Shown here: positions 1 to 11,287 of the stretch, piece after piece
How positions within the stretch are numbered: position 1 is the stretch's first letter
How the letters are laid out: the number at the start of each line of letters is the position of its first letter
Made by a program: the position numbers and the translations under genes
The notes under the pieces: generated by a model
What the model was told of the DNA's origin: nothing
The model's input: the letters and a program-made list of their open reading frames with translations, nothing else
Databases searched by the model: none
From: Actinomycetales bacterium
GTDB taxonomy: Bacteria > Actinomycetota > Actinomycetes > Actinomycetales > Dermatophilaceae
Direction: 5' to 3'
Assembly (NCBI GenBank): GCA_038258215.1
Contig: JBBSQC010000007.1
Span: 1 to 24,000 of the forward strand
Length of the DNA: 24,000 nucleotides

Positions 1-1281
1 CGGTCGTTCAACCCGTTCACCGGGGAGACGTACAAGGAAGCGCTGCAGATGAGCCGGCTCACCCGCGAGATGTTCTGCCTGATGGAGGGGCGGCACGTCC
101 ACCCCTCCACCCTCTACCCGGGCGGCGTCGGCACCGTGGCGACGATCCAGCTGATGACCGACTACATCACCCGGCTGATGCGCTACGTCGAGTTCATGAA
201 GAAGGTCGTGCCGATGCACGACGACCTCTTCGACTTCTTCTACCAGGCGCTGCCGGGCTACGAGGAGGTCGGCAACCGTCGCATCCTGCTGGCCTGCTGG
301 GGGTCCTTCCAGGATCCCGAGCACTGCAACTTCGAGTACAAGGACATGACCAACTGGGGACGCAGGATGTACGTCACCCCGGGCATCGTCGTGGACGGCA
401 AGCTCGTCACGACCGACCTGGTGGAGATCAACCTGGGCATCCGGATCCTGCTCGGCTCGTCGTACTACGACGACTGGGAGGGCCAGGAGATGTTCGTCGA
501 GAAGGACCCCCTCGGCAACCCGGTCGACCGGCGCCACCCCTGGAACCAGCACACCAACCCCAAGCCGCAGAAGCGCGATCTCGACAACAAGTACAGCTGG
601 GTGATGTCGCCGCGCTGGTTCGACGGCACGGACTACCTCGCCCTCGACACCGGGGGTGGCCCGCTCGCGCGGCTGTGGTCGACCGCGCTGGCCGAGCTCG
701 TCGACATCGGCTACGTGCAGTCGACGGGCACGTCGGTGAAGATCAACCTGCCCAAGACCGCGCTGAAGGGCCCGGTCGAGCTGGAGTGGAAGATCCCCAA
801 GTGGAGCAACACGATCGAGCGCAACCGGGCGCGCACCTACTTCCAGGCGTATGCCGCGGCCTGTGCGCTGCACTTCGCCGAGAAGGCGCTGGTCGAGATC
901 CGGGCCGGACGCACCAAGACCTGGGAGAAGTTCACCGTGCCCGAGACGGGGCTCGGCTGTGGCTTCACCGAGGCGGTGCGCGGGGTGCTGAGCCACCACA
1001 TGGTCATCCGCGACGGGAAGATCGCCAACTACCACCCCTACCCGCCGACCCCGTGGAACGCCAACCCGCGTGACTCGTACGGCACCCCGGGACCGTACGA
1101 GGACGCCGTGCAGGGGCAGCCGATCTTCGAGGAGAACGATCGCGAGCACTTCAAGGGCATCGACATCATGCGCACGGTGCGCAGCTTCGACCCGTGCCTG
1201 CCGTGTGGTGTGCACATGTATCTCGGAGAGGGGCAGAAGCTCGAACTGATGCATTCGCCGACCCAGTCCGTCAGCGGATAG
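1..1281 (+). CDS. hhyL: [NiFe]-hydrogenase large subunit, C-terminal ~426 aa (5' end outside window); context suggests group 1h/5 Hhy-type enzyme
   Basis: Frame 1 is open from base 1 (RSFNPFTGETYKEALQ precedes the tracked Met at 49). The C-terminal Ni-ligand motif DPCLPCGVH is followed by a 21-aa tail (MYLGEGQKLELMHSPTQSVSG) of the kind removed by the maturation protease. Strong GC3 bias; followed by protease and hypCFCDE genes. The group 1h assignment is inferred from gene context only. Confidence 0.9.
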   Translation, partial: RSFNPFTGETYKEALQMSRLTREMFCLMEGRHVHPSTLYPGGVGTVATIQLMTDYITRLMRYVEFMKKVVPMHDDLFDFFYQALPGYEEVGNRRILLACWGSFQDPEHCNFEYKDMTNWGRRMYVTPGIVVDGKLVTTDLVEINLGIRILLGSSYYDDWEGQEMFVEKDPLGNPVDRRHPWNQHTNPKPQKRDLDNKYSWVMSPRWFDGTDYLALDTGGGPLARLWSTALAELVDIGYVQSTGTSVKINLPKTALKGPVELEWKIPKWSNTIERNRARTYFQAYAAACALHFAEKALVEIRAGRTKTWEKFTVPETGLGCGFTEAVRGVLSHHMVIRDGKIANYHPYPPTPWNANPRDSYGTPGPYEDAVQGQPIFEENDREHFKGIDIMRTVRSFDPCLPCGVHMYLGEGQKLELMHSPTQSVSG

Positions 1282-1283
1282 CG

Positions 1284-2201
1284 ATGGCGGATGTCGATGG
1301 GGCCCAGCGGCTGAGGGCCACGGGCGAGCGCATCGACGCGCTGCTGGATGCCAGTGGCTCGGGCGGGGTGGTGGCGCGCGAGCGCGCCGAGGAGCTGGTC
1401 CGGCTCGTGGCCGACCTGTACGGCGCCGGGCTGGAACGCATCCTCGACATCACCTACGAGGCCGGGCAGCTCAGCGACGAGGTGCTCGCCGCGCTGGCCG
1501 CGGACGACCTGGTGGCGAGCCTGCTGCTGGTGCACGACCTGCATCCGTACGCCGTGGGCCAGCGCGTGGAGCAGGCGCTGGAGAGCGTGCGGCCCTACCT
1601 CGGCTCGCACGGAGGTGACGTCGAGCTGCTCGGGGTCAGCGACGAGGGCACAGTCCGGCTGCGCCTGCTGGGCAGCTGCGACGGTTGCCCGTCGTCGTCG
1701 GTGACCCTCAAGCTGGCGGTCGAGGGAGCGATCGAGGCGGCCGCGCCCGAGATCACCCGCATCGAGGTGGAGGACGCCGCGCCGAGCGGTGCCGAGACGC
1801 TGATCCCGGTCTCGTCCCTGCGCTCCCGTCTCGACGAGATCTCGGGCAGCACCGCGTCCTGGGAGCCTCTTCCCGACCTCGCGGGTCTGAGCGCCGGTGG
1901 CGTCCTGACGGTCGAGGTCGGCGGCACGAGGGTCGTGGTCTGCCGGCTCGGCGCCGAGCTCTTCGCGTACGCCGACCGCTGTGCCCGCTGCGAGGAGTCT
2001 CTCGAGGGCGCAGCCCTGTCGCGCCGACTGGGTGCAGCAGTGGGCGAGGCCGTGCTGCGCTGTCCTGCGTGCCGAGCCCACTACGACGTCCGCCGCGCTG
2101 GTGCGTGTCTCGACGACGACTCCCTGCACCTCATCCCTGTCCCGCTGCTCACCGATGGCGGCGTCACCTCGGTCGCGGTCGCCACTCCGGTCCCGTCATG
2201 A
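1284..2201 (+). CDS. NifU-like Fe-S assembly domain protein with an all-Cys Rieske-like/zinc-ribbon C-terminal domain
   Basis: ATG at 1284 lies 2 nt after the hhyL stop, in frame with ORF 1194..2201. The central segment LGSHGGDVELLGVSDEGTVRLRLLGSCDGCPSSSVTLKLAVE is typical of the NifU/Nfu C-terminal domain (CxxC). The C-terminus carries C-x2-C-x23-C-x2-C (CARC...CPAC). Confidence 0.8.
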   Translation: MADVDGAQRLRATGERIDALLDASGSGGVVARERAEELVRLVADLYGAGLERILDITYEAGQLSDEVLAALAADDLVASLLLVHDLHPYAVGQRVEQALESVRPYLGSHGGDVELLGVSDEGTVRLRLLGSCDGCPSSSVTLKLAVEGAIEAAAPEITRIEVEDAAPSGAETLIPVSSLRSRLDEISGSTASWEPLPDLAGLSAGGVLTVEVGGTRVVVCRLGAELFAYADRCARCEESLEGAALSRRLGAAVGEAVLRCPACRAHYDVRRAGACLDDDSLHLIPVPLLTDGGVTSVAVATPVPS

Positions 2202-2863
2202 GCGCCCCCGGCGGCTCCCCGCTCGCCTCGCTCCGCCGGATCACCAGCACCCGACCGACGCCGGTGGTGGGTGAGCGCTGCGAGATGTGTGCGGCCGCCA
2301 TCGCCGAGGAGCACCAGCACGTCGTCAACCTCGAGAGCCGGGTGCTGATGTGCACCTGCCGCGGGTGCTACCTGCTGTTCACCGCCGAGCACGCGGAGCT
2401 GCGCTATCGCTCCGTGCCCGACCGCTACCTCTCCTTCCCCGACTTCGAGTTCGGCGCCCGCGAGTGGGACGAGCTCCAGATCCCGGTCGGGCTGGCGTTC
2501 CTGTTCAAGAACTCCGTGCAGGACCGCATCATCGCGTTCTATCCCGGCCCGGCCGGCGCCACCGAGTCGGAGCTCACGCTCGAGGCCTGGGACCGCATCG
2601 TCGTGGCCAACGCCCAGCTCGACCATCTGCGCGCCGACGTGGAGGCGCTGCTGCTGCGCGGTGCCGACCGGGAGCACCCCGACTTCACCGCACACGTGGT
2701 CCCGATCGACGCCTGCTACGAGCTGGTCGGTCGGCTGCGCTCACTGTGGCGCGGCTTCGACGGCGGCACGGAGGCGCGCACGGCGATCGATGACTTCTTC
2801 GCGATGGTCGAGCACCGCAGCAGGCCGGCTCCGCCCGTGCCGACGGTGGCTGATGTCCGATGA
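2198..2863 (+). CDS. Conserved hydrogenase-cluster protein of unknown function (recalled as DUF5947-like), Cys-rich metal-binding motif
   Basis: ATG 2198 overlaps the upstream stop (ATGA), in frame with ORF 1685..2863. Motif C-x2-C-x20-C-x-C-x2-C (CEMC...CTCRGC); GC3 bias. The DUF name is from memory, not verified. Confidence 0.75.
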   Translation: MSAPGGSPLASLRRITSTRPTPVVGERCEMCAAAIAEEHQHVVNLESRVLMCTCRGCYLLFTAEHAELRYRSVPDRYLSFPDFEFGAREWDELQIPVGLAFLFKNSVQDRIIAFYPGPAGATESELTLEAWDRIVVANAQLDHLRADVEALLLRGADREHPDFTAHVVPIDACYELVGRLRSLWRGFDGGTEARTAIDDFFAMVEHRSRPAPPVPTVADVR

Positions 2864-3498
2864 GCAGCTATGAGTTCTCCGTCGTCGACGTCTTCGCCGA
2901 GCCGTATGCCGCCGCGCCGCAGCTCACCGCGCGGCTGCGGATCCGGGAGACGAGCGGCGAGACCATCCACGCGATCGCGCTGCGGTGCCAGGTCAGGATC
3001 GAGCCGCAGCGCCGTCGCTACGAGGAGAGCGACGAGAGCGGCCTGCGCGCGCTCTTCGGCGACCGCGACCGTTGGGTCGACACCCTCAAGCCGTTCCTGT
3101 GGATGCAGTGCAACTCGATGGTCCAGGGGTTCACCGACGTCACCGAGGTCGACCTGGTGCTGCCGTGCACCTACGACTTCGAGGTCACCGGCTCGCGCTA
3201 CCTGCACGCCGTCGGCGATGGTGACATCCCGATCGTCTTCCTGTTCTCGGGCACCGTCTTCACCAAGGGCGCCAACGGGTTCGGCGTGGTGCAGGTGCCC
3301 TGGGACTGCGAGGCCTCCTACCAGCTGCCGGTGCGGGTCTGGCAGCAGATGATCGCGTCCTACTACCCGAACAGCGGATGGATCCGCCTCGACCACGACG
3401 TCCTGACCGCGCTGGCCGAGTTCAAGGCTCAGCACGGTCTGACCACCTGGGAAGAGACGCTCCAGAGCCTGCTCACCACGCACGGGGTCCAGCCATGA
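2860..3498 (+). CDS. Conserved hydrogenase-cluster protein of unknown function (recalled as DUF6084-like)
   Basis: ORF-track entry 2860..3498. Its ATG overlaps the upstream stop (ATGA at 2860-2863). Coding bias; no recognisable catalytic motif. Confidence 0.75.
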   Translation: MSSYEFSVVDVFAEPYAAAPQLTARLRIRETSGETIHAIALRCQVRIEPQRRRYEESDESGLRALFGDRDRWVDTLKPFLWMQCNSMVQGFTDVTEVDLVLPCTYDFEVTGSRYLHAVGDGDIPIVFLFSGTVFTKGANGFGVVQVPWDCEASYQLPVRVWQQMIASYYPNSGWIRLDHDVLTALAEFKAQHGLTTWEETLQSLLTTHGVQP

Positions 3499-4853
3499 GC
3501 GGCATCGACCACGTCCGCGCGATCGCCGACGCGGTCCTGTACGAGGGCTACCTGCTCTATCCCTACCGCGCCAGCTCCTCGAAGAACCAGTCCCGTTGGC
3601 AGTTCGGTGTGCTGGGTCCGCCGCGCGCGACTGCGGCGAGCTTCGCCGAGCAGCCCGGCCTGTCCTTCCAGTGCCTGCTCGATGCCCTCCCGGGTGCGGC
3701 CACCGTCGGAGTGCACCTGCGCTTCCTGCAGCTCCAGGTGCGCTCCGTCGAGCGGTACGCCGACGGCGGCTACCTGCCGGTCACCGAGTTGGTCGTCGAC
3801 GGGACGTCGTTGCTCAGCTGGGAGGAGGCGGTGGAGTGCGAGGTCACACTGCCGCCGTACGACGTGGGCGGTCCGCCGGTCGTCACCGCCGTGGAGGTCC
3901 CGGGTGGTGAGGAGGTCGAGCCGCTCTCGGACGCCGCGGGCACGAAAGTGGGCCGGATCCTGCGCCGGCGGTTCCCGTTGCACGCAGAGGTCCGTGTGGG
4001 CGAGGAACCCGACGACGGGTTCACCCGGCTCAAGGTGGCCGTGACGAACACCCACCCCGACGAGGTGAACGGCAAGGACGACGCCATCCGGTCCTCGATG
4101 ATCGGCACGCACGTGCTCCTCGTCGCCGACGGGTTCACCTTCATCTCGCTGCTGGAACCCTCCGAGGAGGCGGCCGGCGCCGCGGGCCGGTGCACGCAGA
4201 GGCGCTGCTTCCCCGTGCTGGTGGGGCCCGCCGGATCCGCCGACGTGGTGATGGGCTCGCCGATCATCCTCTACGACCACCCGGAGATCGCCGAGGAGAG
4301 CGCTGGTGCGCTGTTCGACTCGACCGAGATCGACGAGATCCTGAGCCTGCGCGTCATGACGATGACCGACACCGAGAAGGCCGAGGCCCGGGCCACCGAC
4401 CCGCGCGCCGCCGCCATCATCGACCGGTGTGACGCGATGTCGCCCGAGACCCTGCGCGACCTGCACGGCACGCTCCGTGACCCCCGCCGGGGCGAGACAC
4501 CCCCAGCCGGCACGGACTTCGACACCGGGGACGTCCCCTGGTGGGACCCGGCCGCCGACGAGAGCGTGCGGCCGGACACCGACAGCGTCGTCATCGACGG
4601 GGTCAGCGTGGCGCGCGGCAGCCTGGTGAGGGTCCACCCGACGCGGCGGGCCGACGCCCAGGACCTGTTCTTCGCCGACCAGGCGGCCCGGGTCACCGCC
4701 GTGCTGTCCGATGTCGACGGCAGCACGCACGTCGCGCTGGTGCTGGTCGACGACCCCGCGGCCGACCTGCACGAGGAAGCCGGGCGCTTCTTCTACTTCG
4801 CCCCGGATGAGCTCGAACCACTGGACCACGCACGAGAGGAGAGTCACCCATGA
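3495..4853 (+). CDS. Conserved hydrogenase-cluster hypothetical protein, 452 aa
   Basis: ATG 3495 overlaps the upstream stop (ATGA 3495-3498), in frame with ORF 3378..4853. N-terminus MSGIDHVRAIADAVLYEGYLLYPYR; strong GC3 bias. The antisense 472-aa ORF is a shadow. Confidence 0.75.
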   Translation: MSGIDHVRAIADAVLYEGYLLYPYRASSSKNQSRWQFGVLGPPRATAASFAEQPGLSFQCLLDALPGAATVGVHLRFLQLQVRSVERYADGGYLPVTELVVDGTSLLSWEEAVECEVTLPPYDVGGPPVVTAVEVPGGEEVEPLSDAAGTKVGRILRRRFPLHAEVRVGEEPDDGFTRLKVAVTNTHPDEVNGKDDAIRSSMIGTHVLLVADGFTFISLLEPSEEAAGAAGRCTQRRCFPVLVGPAGSADVVMGSPIILYDHPEIAEESAGALFDSTEIDEILSLRVMTMTDTEKAEARATDPRAAAIIDRCDAMSPETLRDLHGTLRDPRRGETPPAGTDFDTGDVPWWDPAADESVRPDTDSVVIDGVSVARGSLVRVHPTRRADAQDLFFADQAARVTAVLSDVDGSTHVALVLVDDPAADLHEEAGRFFYFAPDELEPLDHAREESHP

Positions 4854-4969
4854 GAACTGTTGGCTGGCTGACCACGGTCGCCGTCGCCTGCGTTGCCGCA
4901 GTCGCAGCGTTCGTCGGGGTCCGTTCGATCCCCGACATCAAGCGTTACCTCAAGATGCGCCAGATGTGA
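4850..4969 (+). CDS. 39-aa single-pass membrane micro-protein (not in the ORF track)
   Basis: Hand translation: MRTVGWLTTVAVACVAAVAAFVGVRSIPDIKRYLKMRQM, stop TGA 4967-4969. The ATG overlaps the upstream stop (ATGA 4850-4853). One hydrophobic helix followed by a basic tail. Confidence 0.6.
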   Translation: MRTVGWLTTVAVACVAAVAAFVGVRSIPDIKRYLKMRQM

Positions 4970-5003: not shown

Positions 5004-5525
5004 GTGAGTGACCCACCGGGAGCGCGCGCGGGAGAGGTCCCGATGACTCGAGTGCTGGTCGCCGGCATCGGCAACCTCTTCTGCAGCGACGACGGGTTCG
5101 GTCCCGAGGTCGTCCGTCGCCTCGCCGCGCATGGCACCCTGCCCGAGGAGGTCCGCGCCGTCGACTACGGCATCCGTGGCCTGCACCTGGCCTACGACCT
5201 CCTCGACGGCTACGACGCGCTCGTGATCGTCGACGCGCTGCCCGGCGACGGCCGCCCCGGCACGCTCACCGTGCTCGAGGTCGGCGAGGGTGACCTCGGC
5301 GCCAGCGCGTTCGACCCGCACGGGATGGCCCCGGTCGCCGTCCTGGCCGGATTGTCCGACCTGGGTGGCTCCCTGCCACCGACGTACGTCGTGGGGTGTC
5401 GGCCCGCCGACCTCGGCGACGGGATCGGGCTGTCGGACCAGGTCGAGGCCGCGGTTCCCGAGGCGATGCAGACGGTGCTCACCCTGCTCCGTGAGCGGGT
5501 GCCGACGCTGGACTGGGCCTGCTGA
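5004..5525 (+). CDS. [NiFe]-hydrogenase maturation endopeptidase (HupD/HyaD/HybD family)
   Basis: VLVAGIGNLFCSDDGFG, DALPG and a later HG motif are typical of the family. GTG 5004 sits 5 nt after a near-perfect SD, GAAGGAGGAGG (4989-4999). The alternative start ATG 5043 (MTRVLVAGIGN) is also preceded by GGAGAGG and fits family N-termini better, so the start is ambiguous. Confidence 0.85.
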   Translation: MSDPPGARAGEVPMTRVLVAGIGNLFCSDDGFGPEVVRRLAAHGTLPEEVRAVDYGIRGLHLAYDLLDGYDALVIVDALPGDGRPGTLTVLEVGEGDLGASAFDPHGMAPVAVLAGLSDLGGSLPPTYVVGCRPADLGDGIGLSDQVEAAVPEAMQTVLTLLRERVPTLDWAC

Positions 5526-5767
5526 TGTGTCTCGGGATCCCCGGTCGGGTGGTGCGTGTGCTGGACGGCAACGCCGGGATGCTCGCGCTCGTCGACGTGC
5601 TCGGGGCGCAGCGTCCGGTCAACCTCGGGATGCTGGAGGACATGGCGGTCGACCCCGGCGAGTGGGTGCTCATCCACATGGGCTTCGTCGTCGAACGAGT
5701 CGACGAAGCGGCGGCCGAGAAGGCCATGACCGGTCTCGAGCTGATGGGACGCGAGCGCGATGGCTGA
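5525..5767 (+). CDS. hypC: Hydrogenase maturation chaperone HypC/HybG/HupF family (copy 1)
   Basis: 80 aa, N-terminal MCLGIPG with the essential Cys2, GEWVLIHMGFVV core; TGATG overlap with the protease stop. Confidence 0.9.
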   Translation: MCLGIPGRVVRVLDGNAGMLALVDVLGAQRPVNLGMLEDMAVDPGEWVLIHMGFVVERVDEAAAEKAMTGLELMGRERDG

Positions 5768-8067: not shown

Positions 8068-8352
8068 ATGTGTCTAGCGGTCCCAGGCCGCGTCCTGTCC
8101 GTCGAGGACCAGGACGGAACGGCCATGGCGCAGGTCGACTTCGGTGGACTACGCAAGGAGGTCTGTCTGGCCTACATCCCCGACGTCCGGATCGGTGAGT
8201 ACGTCATCGTGCACGTCGGCTTCGCGATCCAGCGGCTCGACGAGAAGTCGGCGCTGGACACACTGGCCAACTTCGAGAAGCTCGGCATCCTCGAGGAAGA
8301 GTTCGGCGACGGCTTCGCCCTCGCCGCCAAGCAAGCAGGAGAACCGCAATGA
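8068..8352 (+). CDS. hypC: Hydrogenase maturation chaperone HypC family (copy 2, longer C-terminal tail)
   Basis: ATG 8068 is preceded by AAAGGAGAG, in frame with ORF 7279..8352. [10 protein letters not shown]..., [12 protein letters not shown] core; 94 aa. Confidence 0.9.
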
Positions 8353-9473: not shown

Positions 9474-10531
9474 TGAGCAACGACCTCGACTTCGAGGGCT
9501 GGGTCTGTCCGCTGCCGCTGCGTGACACCCCGGCGATCGTGATGGGCCACGGTGGCGGCGGAGCCATGTCCGGTGAGCTGATCGAGCAGCTCTTCCTGCC
9601 GGCCTTCGGTGGCGCCGCGCGAGCCGAGCTCGGCGACTCGGCGGTGCTGGAGGTGCCCGCCGGCCGGCTGGCCTTCTCGACCGACTCGTTCGTCGTGAAG
9701 CCGATGTTCTTCCCGGGTGGCTGCATCGGTGACCTCGCGGTCAACGGCACCGTCAACGACCTGGCGATGGCGGGCGCGACACCGCTCTATCTCTCGACGG
9801 CGTTCATCCTGGCCGAGGGCACCTTGATGACGGACATCGGCCGCGTCGCGATGGCGATCGGCAAGGCGGCCGAGGTCGCGGGAGTGCAGCTCGTCACCGG
9901 CGACACCAAGGTGGTCGACAGCGGCAGCGGCGACGGCATCTTCATCAACACCACCGGCATCGGCGTCATCCCCGACGGCATCGACATCTCGCCGGCGCGG
10001 GCCCGGGTGGGCGACGCCGTGCTGGTCAGCGGTGACATCGGCGTGCACGGCATCGCGGTGATGAGCTGTCGCGACGGGCTCGAGTTCGGCACCACGATCG
10101 AGAGCGACTGCGCGCCCCTGCACGGGCTGGTGGCCGACATGCTCGCCACAGGGGTGGACGTGCACGTGCTGCGGGACCCGACCCGCGGCGGAGTCTCGGC
10201 CACCCTCAACGAGATCGCCAAGGCTTCCGGGGTGGGCGTCGAGCTGGTCGAGAAGGACCTGCCGATCCCGGCCGAGGTCAAGGATGCCTGCGGCCTGCTC
10301 GGCCTCGACCCGCTCCAGGTCGCCAACGAGGGCAAGTTGATCGCGATCGTGGCGGCCGAGGATGCCGACGAGGTGCTGGCTGCGATGCGGCGGCACCCGC
10401 GCGGTACGGGTGCACGCCGCATCGGCACGTGCGTCGCGGAGCACCGGCAGATGGTCGTGGCCCGAACCGGTCTCGGCGGGACCCGCGTCGTGGACCTGCC
10501 GATCGGCGAGCAGCTACCCCGGATCTGCTGA
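9473..10531 (+). CDS. hypE: Hydrogenase expression/formation protein HypE
   Basis: ATG 9473 (TGATG overlap with the hypD stop), in frame with ORF 9284..10531. AIR-synthase-like fold signature and the characteristic C-terminal PRIC. Confidence 0.95.
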   Translation: MSNDLDFEGWVCPLPLRDTPAIVMGHGGGGAMSGELIEQLFLPAFGGAARAELGDSAVLEVPAGRLAFSTDSFVVKPMFFPGGCIGDLAVNGTVNDLAMAGATPLYLSTAFILAEGTLMTDIGRVAMAIGKAAEVAGVQLVTGDTKVVDSGSGDGIFINTTGIGVIPDGIDISPARARVGDAVLVSGDIGVHGIAVMSCRDGLEFGTTIESDCAPLHGLVADMLATGVDVHVLRDPTRGGVSATLNEIAKASGVGVELVEKDLPIPAEVKDACGLLGLDPLQVANEGKLIAIVAAEDADEVLAAMRRHPRGTGARRIGTCVAEHRQMVVARTGLGGTRVVDLPIGEQLPRIC

Positions 10532-10543
10532 GCGCCCGTCATC

Positions 10544-11287
10544 ATGAGTGATGAGGGGGCGCTGAAGTTCGCGCGCTATGCCTACCCGCCCAACCAGCTC
10601 GGCTACTGCGGTCCCGACGGTGCGCACGAGATGCTCGCGCCCGGCGCGGTGGCCGAGATCGAACGGCGGGCGCGGCTGTTCGACGGCGCCTGGGTCTATC
10701 TCGAGTTCCTCGCCGGTGTGCTCGGCACCGATGACCCTCTCTCGACGCCGGTGGTCGAGGCGTACTGGATCGGCAGTGACCTGCTGGCCGCCGTCGACCC
10801 GGCCGCCCTCGTCCGGCATCTGACGCTGGCGTTCGACGGTCAGGTCGGCGGGACGTGGCGGGAGTCGGCCGCGCGGGCTCGCGCGCACCACAGCTACCAG
10901 GTCTTCGAGGTCTATCCATGGGCCGCGATGCTGCTTCGTGGCCTGTCCCCCGGTCCCGCGGTGTCCGTGCTCGACCGCTGCCGGATCCGTACGGGCGTCG
11001 TGTGCGAGGTCGACGGCGAGTCGGTGGTGGTGAGATCCAACCTCCTTGCCTGGGACGGCGACTCGCTGATCCCGTCGCAAAGCCAGGTCGAGGCGGCCCG
11101 GTGGTCGCTCGACGGCCAGAGCCTGCTGTCCCCGCCGGCCGTCGGCGACACGGTGGCGCTGCACTGGGACTGGGTGTGCGACGTCCTCACGCCGGATCAG
11201 GCCGACCGCATCCAGCGGATCGAGGCGACCCAACGAAGCGCCGTCGGGCTGGGCGGGCCGGAAGAAGGCGGGCGCCGCCTGGACTGA
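10544..11287 (+). CDS. Conserved hydrogenase-cluster protein of unknown function (recalled as DUF6390-like); the C-terminal half resembles HypC
   Basis: ORF-track entry, 12 nt after the hypE stop. Residues ~146-228 (CRIRTGVVCEVDGE ... GDTVALHWDWVCDVLTPDQADRI) align by eye with the HypC copies in this window. Confidence 0.75.
   Translation: MSDEGALKFARYAYPPNQLGYCGPDGAHEMLAPGAVAEIERRARLFDGAWVYLEFLAGVLGTDDPLSTPVVEAYWIGSDLLAAVDPAALVRHLTLAFDGQVGGTWRESAARARAHHSYQVFEVYPWAAMLLRGLSPGPAVSVLDRCRIRTGVVCEVDGESVVVRSNLLAWDGDSLIPSQSQVEAARWSLDGQSLLSPPAVGDTVALHWDWVCDVLTPDQADRIQRIEATQRSAVGLGGPEEGGRRLD

What the first reader, a model, noticed from the sequence alone, without database searches (positions are those of the whole stretch)
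1284..4969. Five translationally coupled genes of unknown function wedged between the hydrogenase large subunit and its maturation protease
The block from hhyL to the protease gene contains a NifU-like protein, three conserved unknowns (222, 212 and 452 aa) and a 39-aa membrane ORF. Each start overlaps or abuts the previous stop: 1281/1284, then ATGA at 2198, 2860, 3495 and 4850. That implies fixed stoichiometry with the structural genes. Two of the proteins carry multi-Cys motifs: C-x2-C-x20-C-x-C-x2-C in the 222-aa protein and C-x2-C-x23-C-x2-C at the NifU-like C-terminus. These suggest metal or Fe-S handling. To my knowledge no biochemical role has been assigned to this block in high-affinity actinobacterial hydrogenases. 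It is the largest stretch of function-unknown but clearly selected coding sequence in the window.
Basis: partly seen in the sequence, partly recalled or inferred. Interest (0 to 1): 0.62.

Follow-up and report, generated by a model that had tools for sequence, protein, structure and literature searches.

The report
Known-unknown helper genes of air-hydrogen hydrogenase
The five overlapping genes are real and are this genome's copy of an already catalogued but still unexplained accessory set (hhyE, hhaABC, a 39-residue membrane peptide) that accompanies the hydrogenase soil bacteria use to live on atmospheric hydrogen.

Summary

The block is not new. Gene 1 is HhyE, which is required for Hhy activity in M. 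smegmatis (PMC6883350). Genes 2-4 are the published "conserved hypotheticals" hhaABC (PHG067-069 of C. necator pHG1). Two of them are the Pfam families DUF5947 and DUF6084. Gene 5 is DUF6893. This scan has reported the same block in many other genomes.

- **Co-occurrence:** among 201 genomes of the phylum, the genes occur only in the 27 that carry a group 1h large subunit.
- **Gene order:** it is fixed in 80 genome loci and 80 metagenome loci.
- **Solved structures:** no PDB entry, including the active enzyme 5AA5, contains these proteins.
- **Folds:** HhaB is predicted as a generic Ig-like sandwich. HhaC is a large beta domain with no convincing match plus an SH3-like barrel.
- **HhaA:** it keeps 6 Cys and 2 His invariant.
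- **Short HhyE forms:** these (including PHG066) lack the NifU CxxC.
- **The peptide:** it also exists, unannotated, in pHG1.
- **Fusions:** the gene-fusion argument used by earlier reports is weaker than claimed.

Best reading, at about 50%: a hydrogenase-specific assembly module plus a membrane tether, not a missing electron wire.

The parts
1..1281 (+). hhyL, 3' 426 codons of the group 1h [NiFe]-hydrogenase large subunit (context). The last 21 residues after CGVH form the C-terminal extension that maturation removes.
   Evidence: 5AA5 HofG matches at E 2e-223, and that chain ends at the His aligned to window residue 405; 60-86% identity to the large subunits of 26 other genomes.
1284..2201 (+). 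hhyE: N-terminal helical region, NifU/Nfu domain (residues 95-161, C132-x2-C135) and an all-Cys Rieske-fold domain (residues 193-283; C220, C233, C236, C260, C263).
   Evidence: PF01106 at 3e-23; PF00355 at 21.3 bits against a cut-off of 20.3; these Cys are invariant in 74-75 full-length orthologues; 36% identity to PHG066 over the NifU part.
2198..2863 (+). hhaA (DUF5947; PHG067 orthologue). Invariant residues are C28, C31, H39, H41, C52, C54, C57 and C173.
   Evidence: PF19372 at 5e-72; invariant columns in 93 sequences; 41% identity to PHG067; the model has a zinc-knuckle, a beta-hairpin and a helix N-terminus around the Cys residues.
2860..3498 (+). hhaB (DUF6084; PHG068 orthologue). Predicted Ig-like beta-sandwich followed by C-terminal helices. 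No conserved metal ligands.
   Evidence: PF19562 at 3e-94; the invariant residues are mostly aromatic, Pro or Arg; pLDDT of 86-98 over this half of the fusion model; Foldseek hits are to beta-sandwich domains of FXIII, KirBac and LEA14.
3495..4853 (+). hhaC (PHG069 orthologue; no Pfam family). Conserved N-terminal motif (residues 11-42), beta-rich domain (50-260), conserved acidic helical segment (261-325) and an SH3-like C-terminal barrel (about 360-442).
   Evidence: no family hit; 3806 cluster representatives at E<1e-3; invariant columns. AF2 pLDDT 83.2, pTM 0.70. Foldseek result; 35% identity to PHG069 over the full length.
4850..4969 (+). DUF6893 micro-protein, 39 aa. One hydrophobic helix and a basic tail, RSIPDIKRYLKMRQM, ending in Met-stop. 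It has its own GAGGAG Shine-Dalgarno sequence.
   Evidence: PF21833 at 5e-16; present in all 80 genome loci (65 by phmmer, all 39 aa, plus 15 by HMM), with 66 distinct sequences including the window's; 21 genomes score above the cut-off, all of them Hhy-positive; present in 35 of 46 judgeable metagenome loci; a 33-aa homologue lies in pHG1.
5043..5525 (+). hupD-type maturation endopeptidase (context; the downstream end of the block).
   Evidence: PF01750 at 4e-17; TIGR00072 at 120.6 bits against a cut-off of 47.45.

Best explanation
The block is the group 1h (Hhy)-specific accessory module. Most likely it helps build and place the enzyme rather than forming part of its catalytic or electron-transfer core.

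**Proposed roles (inferred unless marked shown)**
- **HhyE** is a dedicated helper of the hydrogenase.
  - Shown genetically in M. smegmatis: it is required for activity.
  - In Actinomycetota it carries an Nfu-type CxxC and a 4-Cys Rieske-fold site. It may therefore deliver or hold an Fe-S cluster for the small subunit.
- **HhaA** is a small metal-binding protein. Its N-terminus looks like a treble-clef Zn site (C28, C31, C54 or C52, C57). A possible second site would use H39, H41, C52 or C54, and C173.
- **HhaB and HhaC** are non-redox scaffold or chaperone proteins.
  - HhaB is an Ig-like sandwich.
  - HhaC is a large beta domain plus an SH3-like barrel.
  - I propose that they act on the unprocessed large subunit together with the HupD endopeptidase. 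HupD removes the 21-residue C-terminal extension.
- **The DUF6893 peptide** is a single-pass membrane micro-protein.
  - Its basic tail is predicted to face the cytoplasm.
  - It is the only predicted transmembrane element in the operon.
  - It is therefore the best candidate for tethering the otherwise soluble-looking enzyme to the membrane.
For: **Specificity**
- DUF6084 (27 genomes), DUF5947 (26) and HhaC (26) occur only in the 27 of 201 sampled genomes that have an HhyL at 60% identity or more.
- None occurs in the other 174 genomes. These include at least 7 with other respiratory-type [NiFe] large subunits at 35-44% identity.

**Position and coupling**
- The genes always lie between hhyL and hupD-hypC.
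- hhaC overlaps hupD by 4 nt in 43 of 62 metagenome loci and in pHG1.

**Not stoichiometric subunits of the solved enzyme**
- 5AA5 is the only group 1h structure in the PDB copy.
- No PDB chain matches HhyE's non-NifU parts, HhaA, HhaB or HhaC, by sequence or by profile.

**Not redox proteins**
- HhaB and HhaC have no conserved Cys or His cluster.
- Their predicted folds are non-cofactor folds.

**An Fe-S relay cannot be the universal role of HhyE**
- The short HhyE forms all lack the first Cys of the NifU CxxC. These are PHG066, M. parvus, Actinoplanes and Asanoa.
- They also lack the whole 4-Cys domain.

**Literature**
- The hhyE deletion mutant loses activity even with the artificial acceptor NBT. 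The authors themselves allow an assembly role (PMC6883350).
- hhaABC is co-induced with hhySL under carbon limitation (10.1101/457697).
- PHG066, PHG067 and PHG070 are co-induced in C. necator (PMC4377017).

**Fusions**
- Seven 50%-cluster representatives join HhaC to a HycI/HupD domain, with conserved motifs intact on both sides.
- None has an M, V or L at the usual protease start.

**Peptide**
- Hhy is found only in the membrane fraction and resists 5% cholate, although it lacks transmembrane segments and a signal peptide (10.1101/769216).
- DUF6893 is present in 80 of 80 actinobacterial loci and in 35 of 46 judgeable metagenome loci.
Against: **No direct evidence**
- There is no experimental evidence for HhaA, HhaB, HhaC or the peptide in any organism.

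**The fusion argument is weak**
- HhaC and HupD are separate ORFs in 62 of 62 metagenome loci and in all 74 genome loci where both are visible.
- The fused forms are of unknown provenance. They come from a library that probably favours long representatives (my assumption).
- Nearly all HhaA-HhaB 'fusions' come from long-read MAGs. Their conserved motifs and neighbouring genes are visibly frameshifted.

**Points that favour a redox role**
- In Actinomycetota the HhyE Cys ligands are invariant.
- HhyE reportedly co-migrates with HhyLS on native gels (PMC6883350). This fits a redox partner as well as it fits a helper.
- HhaA's 6 Cys and 2 His could bind an Fe-S cluster.

**Points against the tether idea**
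- C. necator AH is described as cytoplasmic (PMC4377017), yet pHG1 has a DUF6893-like ORF.
- About 10 of 46 metagenome loci and the M. parvus locus lack the peptide.

**Structure gave no functional match**
- Foldseek returned only generic or weak matches.
Confidence: 0.5

Rival explanations
1. Electron-transfer module. HhyE (Fe-S) and/or HhaA (Cys/His cluster) accept electrons from the distal cluster of HhyS and pass them towards menaquinone. HhaB and HhaC act as structural adaptors, and the peptide is the membrane anchor of this relay.
For: - Group 1h operons lack a cytochrome b gene (PMC6883350).
- The HhyE ligands C132, C135, C233, C236, C260 and C263 are invariant in 74-75 full-length actinobacterial orthologues.
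- HhaA keeps 6 Cys and 2 His invariant, also in PHG067.
- PHG067 was proposed as the electron acceptor, and HhyE co-migrates with HhyLS (PMC6883350).
- Hhy is tightly membrane-bound (10.1101/769216).
Against: - PHG066 and the other short HhyE forms have no cluster ligands at all. T. roseum and Methylacidiphilum lack HhyE entirely (PMC6883350).
- NBT does not rescue the hhyE deletion mutant (PMC6883350).
- HhaB and HhaC have no cofactor motifs.
- The solved active enzyme lacks all of these proteins.
- hhaC is translationally coupled to the protease gene in most lineages.
Confidence: 0.2
2. Stable extra subunits. HhaA, HhaB and HhaC (with or without HhyE and the peptide) are true components of a larger native Hhy complex at the membrane. 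In this reading they play a role like that of HucM in Huc and are lost during the purification that gave 5AA5.
For: - The genes sit with the structural genes and are strictly co-inherited with them.
- The most conserved stretches of HhaC (residues 11-42 and 261-325) are modelled with low confidence (pLDDT 50-79). The confident beta domain is less conserved. This is the pattern expected of segments that fold on a partner.
- Huc needed a third subunit that genomics alone had not explained (PMC10017518).
Against: - M. smegmatis Hhy runs as a low-molecular-weight activity band on native gels (10.1101/769216).
- No structural or proteomic evidence was available here.
- Partner-binding segments fit a chaperone equally well.
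Confidence: 0.15
3. A general metalloprotein or oxidative-stress helper pair. HhaB and HhaC are not hydrogenase-specific and also serve other metalloenzymes.
For: I did not test this.
Against: In my sample of 201 genomes, no DUF6084, DUF5947 or HhaC hit lies outside a genome that has Hhy.
Confidence: 0.05

Closest known systems
PHG066-PHG070 of the actinobacterial-type hydrogenase (AH, hofKG) cluster on Cupriavidus necator H16 megaplasmid pHG1
   Same: - The order is the same: small subunit, large subunit, NifU-like, DUF5947, DUF6084, about 476-aa unknown, protease.
- Identities to the window proteins are 36%, 41%, 42%, 35% and 48%.
- Junctions are 4-8-nt overlaps.
   Different: - PHG066 has the NifU fold only (192 aa). 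It has no CxxC and no 4-Cys domain.
- The DUF6893-like ORF is 33 aa, unannotated, and lies after the protease gene instead of before it.
M. smegmatis hhy operon: HhyE (MSMEG_2718) and the downstream hypotheticals (MSMEG_2717 and following); 'hhaABC' of Thermomicrobium roseum (trd_1876-1874)
   Same: - The window's HhyE has the family's features as described in PMC6883350: a NifU CxxC and two C-terminal CxxC motifs.
- Mycobacterial and Mycolicibacterium loci in my set (for example L024 and L032) have the identical order, including the 39-aa peptide.
   Different: - The experimental evidence (loss of Hhy activity on deletion) exists only for HhyE and only in M. smegmatis.
- Nothing has been tested for this genome.
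- I could not read the M. smegmatis locus itself.
Group 1d accessory proteins of O2-tolerant membrane-bound hydrogenases (HoxO/HyaE, HoxQ/HyaF, HoxR rubredoxin, HoxT/HybE, HoxV/HupK)
   Same: This is an analogy only. Both are hydrogenase-class-specific extra genes between the structural and hyp genes. They include a small Cys-rich protein and are needed for aerobic assembly (from general knowledge; the rubredoxin example is cited in PMC6883350).
   Different: - No sequence or profile similarity was found.
- Pfam gives only DUFs for the window proteins.
- hhalign probabilities against HypA and HypC profiles are at most 0.6%.
- I did not have Hox profiles to test.
Nfu/NifU C-terminal domain Fe-S carriers (NfuA, plant Nfu2) and Rieske-type ferredoxins
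   Same: - HhyE residues 93-168 align with plant Nfu2 (2z51, E 2e-16) and other Nfu domains.
- Residues 193-283 have a Rieske fold signal.
   Different: - HhyE falls far below the NCBIfam NfuA and NifU equivalog cut-offs (43 bits against 269).
- The Rieske CxH...CxxH ligands are replaced by CxxC...CxxC, so this is not a Rieske centre.

Membership tests
HhyE (HucE/HhyE family of Islam et al. 2019) | Encoded immediately downstream of the group 1h large subunit gene | tested here: met
   The start at 1284 lies 2 nt after the hhyL stop. The position is the same in 76 related loci.
HhyE (HucE/HhyE family of Islam et al. 2019) | NifU-like domain with a CxxC motif, plus two C-terminal CxxC motifs | tested here: met
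   PF01106 at 3e-23 over residues 95-161. The motifs are C132/C135, C233/C236 and C260/C263.
HhyE (HucE/HhyE family of Islam et al. 2019) | Required for Hhy H2-oxidation activity | not testable with these tools
   Shown only for MSMEG_2718 (PMC6883350).
DUF5947 (PF19372) / PHG067 / HhaA | Profile match above the gathering score, with the conserved CxxC...HxH...CxCxxC...C residues | tested here: met
   241.6 bits against a cut-off of 25. C28, C31, H39, H41, C52, C54, C57 and C173 are invariant in 93 sequences. Identity to PHG067 is 41%.
DUF6084 (PF19562) / PHG068 / HhaB | Profile match above the gathering score, and a position between DUF5947 and HhaC | tested here: met
   314.7 bits against a cut-off of 25. 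Identity to PHG068 is 42%. Synteny is shown.
HhaC / PHG069 (no curated family) | Full-length similarity to PHG069 and a position between DUF6084 and the protease gene | tested here: met
   35% identity over residues 4-450 against 1-476, E 5e-72. Synteny is shown.
DUF6893 (PF21833) | Profile match above the gathering score | tested here: met
   58.9 bits against a cut-off of 24.6.
Rieske [2Fe-2S] proteins | Cluster ligands CxH ... CxxH (2 Cys and 2 His) | tested here: not met
   The ligand positions read C233-x2-C236 ... C260-x2-C263. H266 is not conserved (50 of 79 sequences). PF00355 reaches only 21.3 bits against a cut-off of 20.3. The fold is related but this is not a Rieske centre.
NfuA / NifU proper (NCBIfam equivalogs) | Score above the curated equivalog cut-off | tested here: not met
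   TIGR03341 scores 42.9 against 269. TIGR02000 scores 36.6 against 273. Only the Nfu domain is shared.
HypA / HypC maturation proteins | Profile-profile similarity | tested here: not met
   hhalign probabilities are at most 0.6% for HhaA, HhaB, HhaC and the HhaC sub-domains against HypA and HypC alignments built from the loci. The HypC alignment was crude.

The most novel reading that the evidence does not exclude
The overlooked DUF6893 micro-protein may be the missing membrane tether of group 1h hydrogenases, or their coupling subunit to a respiratory complex.
- It has 33-39 residues, one transmembrane helix and an invariant ...PD-x2-RY-x3-(R/K)-x-Met-COOH tail.
- HhaA, HhaB and HhaC together with HupD would then form a dedicated late-assembly machine that hands the processed enzyme to it.
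- This would explain how an enzyme with no signal peptide, no transmembrane segment and no cytochrome b is bound so tightly to the membrane.
Probability: 0.25. Interest if true: 0.65.

Novelty: already known. Interest (0 to 1): 0.36.

Why it matters
Group 1h hydrogenases are among the main enzymes credited with the soil sink for atmospheric H2. They also support bacterial persistence.

Two questions remain open in the papers I could search:
- How is the enzyme assembled in air?
- How do its electrons reach the quinone pool, given that there is no cytochrome b subunit?

The genes in this block are the obvious candidates for both answers, and only HhyE has been tested.

This window adds no new kind of gene. 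The comparative results do sharpen which experiments are worth doing:
- **The peptide:** it is conserved across phyla, so it is worth testing as a tether.
- **HhyE:** it exists in Cys-less forms, which argues against a universal electron relay.
- **Fusions:** the fusion evidence used in earlier reports of this scan needs caution.

Tried and rejected
- **PDB by sequence and by profile** for HhaA, HhaB and HhaC: nothing better than E 0.3.
- **NCBIfam** for genes 2-5: nothing.
- **Foldseek for HhaC**:
  - The top hit is DISARM DrmA (7s9v_A), with E 2e-5 but TMq 0.25 and rmsd 22 Å. I treat it as not interpretable.
  - Only the C-terminal 75 or so residues match anything compact. These matches are the SH3-like folds of PetP, the nitrile hydratase beta C-terminus and BAH domains.
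- **Foldseek for the HhaA-HhaB model**: only generic Ig-like sandwiches for the HhaB half. Nothing for HhaA appears in the top 50.
- **Folding two proteins in one job:**
  - I used a natural-looking HhaA-HhaB fusion (L016) as the target.
  - MAFFT first stacked HhaA rows on HhaB rows (A5 and A7).
  - Trimming 22 C-terminal residues from the HhaA rows gave a block-diagonal alignment (A8).
  - The rows are unpaired and pTM is 0.54, so the relative orientation of the two halves carries no information.
- **Rosetta-stone argument:**
  - I expected to confirm it and instead found it fragile.
  - The HhaA-HhaB fusion proteins are almost all from long-read ENA MAGs. They show garbled conserved motifs and fragmented neighbouring genes (L085, L086).
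  - Only L107 looks clean.
  - HhaC-HupD is fused in none of 62 metagenome loci.
- **hhalign against HypA and HypC**: no similarity.
- **Literature:**
  - DUF5947 and DUF6893 appear in no paper, and DUF6084 in one incidental paper.
  - No 2022-2026 paper on Hhy accessory genes was found.
  - Schäfer et al. 2013 is not held. What I say about it comes from papers that cite it.

Full report
**1. Observation**

The window starts inside hhyL at the end of contig C7. The partial large-subunit gene ends with TAG at 1279-1281. Five genes follow on the plus strand:

| Gene | Coordinates | Length |
|---|---|---|
| 1 (hhyE) | 1284-2201 | 305 aa |
| 2 (hhaA) | 2198-2863 | 221 aa |
| 3 (hhaB) | 2860-3498 | 212 aa |
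| 4 (hhaC) | 3495-4853 | 452 aa |
| 5 (peptide) | 4850-4969 | 39 aa |

The only slip is 221 rather than 222 residues for gene 2.
- GC3 is 0.89-0.94 for the four large genes.
- Pfam scores lie far above their cut-offs.
- dN/dS is 0.17-0.54, like the neighbouring protease gene.
- Gene order is invariant in 80 related genome loci.
- Downstream lie hupD, hypC, hypF, hypC, hypD, hypE and a DUF6390 gene.

These are real, selected genes.

**2. What the genes are**

- **Gene 1 is HhyE.**
  - It has a NifU/Nfu domain with C132-x2-C135.
  - Its C-terminal Rieske-fold domain has ligand positions that are all Cys.
  - This matches the published description of HhyE.
  - Deleting the M. smegmatis orthologue abolishes Hhy activity (PMC6883350).
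- **Genes 2 and 3** are DUF5947 and DUF6084.
- **Gene 4** has no curated family but has 3806 cluster representatives.
- **Gene 5** is DUF6893.
- On C. necator pHG1 the same order reads NifU-like, DUF5947, DUF6084, 476-aa hypothetical, protease. This is PHG066-070, at 35-48% identity to the window proteins.
- PHG067 and MSMEG_2717 have been floated as electron acceptors (PMC6883350).
- Earlier reports of this scan describe the same block in many other genomes.

The block is a known unknown, not a discovery.

**3. Specificity**

I sampled 201 genomes of the phylum.

- DUF6084 occurs in 27, DUF5947 in 26 and HhaC in 26.
- All of these lie within the 27 genomes that have an HhyL at 60% identity or more.
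- The single genome lacking two of the hits has its locus cut by a contig end.
- None of the 174 other genomes has any of them. These include at least seven with other respiratory-type large subunits at 35-44% identity.
- DUF6893 scores above its cut-off in 21 genomes. All are Hhy-positive, and the places listed lie on the same contig close to hhaC.

**4. Structure**

- No solved structure contains relatives of HhaA, HhaB or HhaC.
- The only group 1h structure, 5AA5, holds the two structural subunits. Its large-subunit chain ends at the His that aligns with window residue 405. The last 21 residues of the window's HhyL are therefore the extension removed by the protease.
- **HhaC model** (AF2, pLDDT 83, pTM 0.70):
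  - A confident beta-rich domain (residues 50-260).
  - A helical segment.
  - A small C-terminal barrel.
  - Foldseek finds nothing convincing for the beta domain.
  - The barrel matches SH3-like folds such as PetP, with TM about 0.7 relative to the target.
  - The two most conserved stretches (residues 11-42 and 261-325) are modelled with the lowest confidence. I take this to mean that they fold on a partner.
- **HhaA and HhaB model.** I used a 442-residue HhaA-HhaB open frame from locus L016 with a block-diagonal alignment. pLDDT is 87.
  - HhaB resembles generic Ig-like sandwiches.
  - HhaA has no match in the top 50.
  - HhaA's invariant residues are C28, C31, H39, H41, C52, C54, C57 and C173, in 93 sequences and also in PHG067.
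  - The model places the first CxxC on a knuckle, HxH and CxC on a beta-hairpin, and the last Cys at a helix N-terminus.
  - I read this as a treble-clef Zn-type site plus a possible second 2His/2Cys site.

**5. HhyE is not uniform**

- In 74-75 full-length actinobacterial orthologues, all of these Cys are invariant.
- The short forms have lost the first Cys of the NifU motif and lack the 4-Cys domain. These are PHG066, the M. parvus protein, and three Actinoplanes or Asanoa loci.
- An Fe-S-dependent electron relay therefore cannot be the function shared by all group 1h operons.

**6. The peptide**

- All 80 genome loci encode it between hhaC and hupD. It is found by phmmer in 65, all exactly 39 codons long, and by HMM in the other 15.
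- There are 66 distinct sequences including the window's.
- It is also present in 35 of the 46 metagenome loci that can be judged. In 28 of these it lies after hupD, where it has 33-36 residues.
- pHG1 has an unannotated 33-codon homologue, with an AGGAGG Shine-Dalgarno sequence, between PHG070 and hypF.
- Every copy ends ...PD-x2-RY-x3-(R/K)-x-Met-stop.
- The hydrophobic helix followed by a strongly basic tail predicts a cytoplasmic tail.
- Hhy of M. smegmatis is found only in the membrane fraction and resists cholate, although it has no transmembrane segment or signal peptide (10.1101/769216).
- The peptide is therefore the obvious tether candidate. Earlier reports of this scan suggested the same idea.
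- Against this, C. necator AH is described as cytoplasmic (PMC4377017). About ten metagenome loci and the M. parvus locus lack the peptide.

**7. Fusions**

Earlier reports leaned on natural fusions to argue for an assembly role. I tested this.

- **HhaC-HupD**
  - Seven of ten long HhaC cluster representatives carry a C-terminal HycI/HupD domain.
  - Motifs are intact on both sides, linkers vary, and no M, V or L sits at the usual protease start. These features argue for real fusions.
  - Their provenance cannot be checked. The library probably prefers long representatives (my assumption).
  - HhaC and HupD are separate ORFs in all 62 metagenome loci and all 74 genome loci where both are visible.
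- **HhaA-HhaB**
  - The many DUF5947+DUF6084 'fusion' proteins come almost entirely from long-read MAGs.
  - They show garbled conserved motifs and fragmented neighbouring genes.
  - Only L107 looks clean.

Fusion evidence is therefore supportive at best. More robust is the 4-nt overlap of hhaC with hupD in 43 of 62 diverse loci and in pHG1.

**8. Synthesis**

The evidence favours an assembly or placement module (about 0.5) over an electron relay (about 0.2) or permanent extra subunits (about 0.15). The reasons are:

- The genes are strictly specific to this hydrogenase class.
- They are absent from the solved active enzyme.
- HhaB and HhaC lack cofactor motifs.
- Some HhyE forms lack Cys ligands.
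- NBT does not rescue the hhyE deletion mutant.
- hhaC is coupled to the protease gene.

None of this is direct evidence.

**9. Limits**

- Schäfer et al. 2013 could not be read.
- Only two structure jobs were allowed.
- No complex prediction was possible.

Noticed in passing
window 1-626; genome contig C14, first 9 kb (reverse strand): The window begins inside hhyL at a contig end. The end of contig C14 carries a hypB-like gene, hhyS and the 5' part of hhyL. It overlaps window 1-626 at 90% nucleotide identity (94% amino acid identity). This is either a strain variant that broke the assembly or a second hhy copy. The HhyS N-terminus there shows no twin-arginine motif.
   Followed up: partly
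L082 (C. necator pHG1, NC_005241.1) 9658-9759: An unannotated 33-codon ORF (MKGFLKYLVLPALVVALLANIKDIRRYIRIRSM) lies between PHG070 and hypF, behind an AGGAGG Shine-Dalgarno sequence. It is a DUF6893 homologue in the model organism for this enzyme class.
   Followed up: partly
L082 5771-6346 (PHG066); L083 4839-5360; L010, L013, L080: The short, NifU-only HhyE homologues have lost the first Cys of the NifU CxxC motif. PHG066 has neither Cys. They cannot bind a cluster in the usual Nfu way.
   Followed up: yes
window 10544-11287: A DUF6390 protein (247 aa, Pfam 1e-80) closes the hyp cluster after hypE. It is another uncharacterised family attached to this hydrogenase cluster.
   Followed up: no
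proteins P0391-P0436; loci L085, L086: Many multi-domain 'fusion' proteins in the large protein collection come from long-read metagenome assemblies that carry frameshifts. Conserved motifs are garbled and neighbouring genes are split. Domain-fusion arguments drawn from that collection need a check at the DNA level.
   Followed up: partly
L084 (M. intracellulare subsp. chimaera plasmid NZ_CP012886.2) 7986-8111: A complete hhy operon sits on a 437-kb mycobacterial plasmid next to nuo genes. The 126-nt unannotated gap between hhaC and hupD encodes the 39-aa DUF6893 peptide.
   Followed up: partly
window 5525-5767 and about 8100-8352: Two hypC paralogues flank hypF. hypA and hypB are not in the window. 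A hypB-like gene lies upstream of hhyS on contig C14.
   Followed up: no
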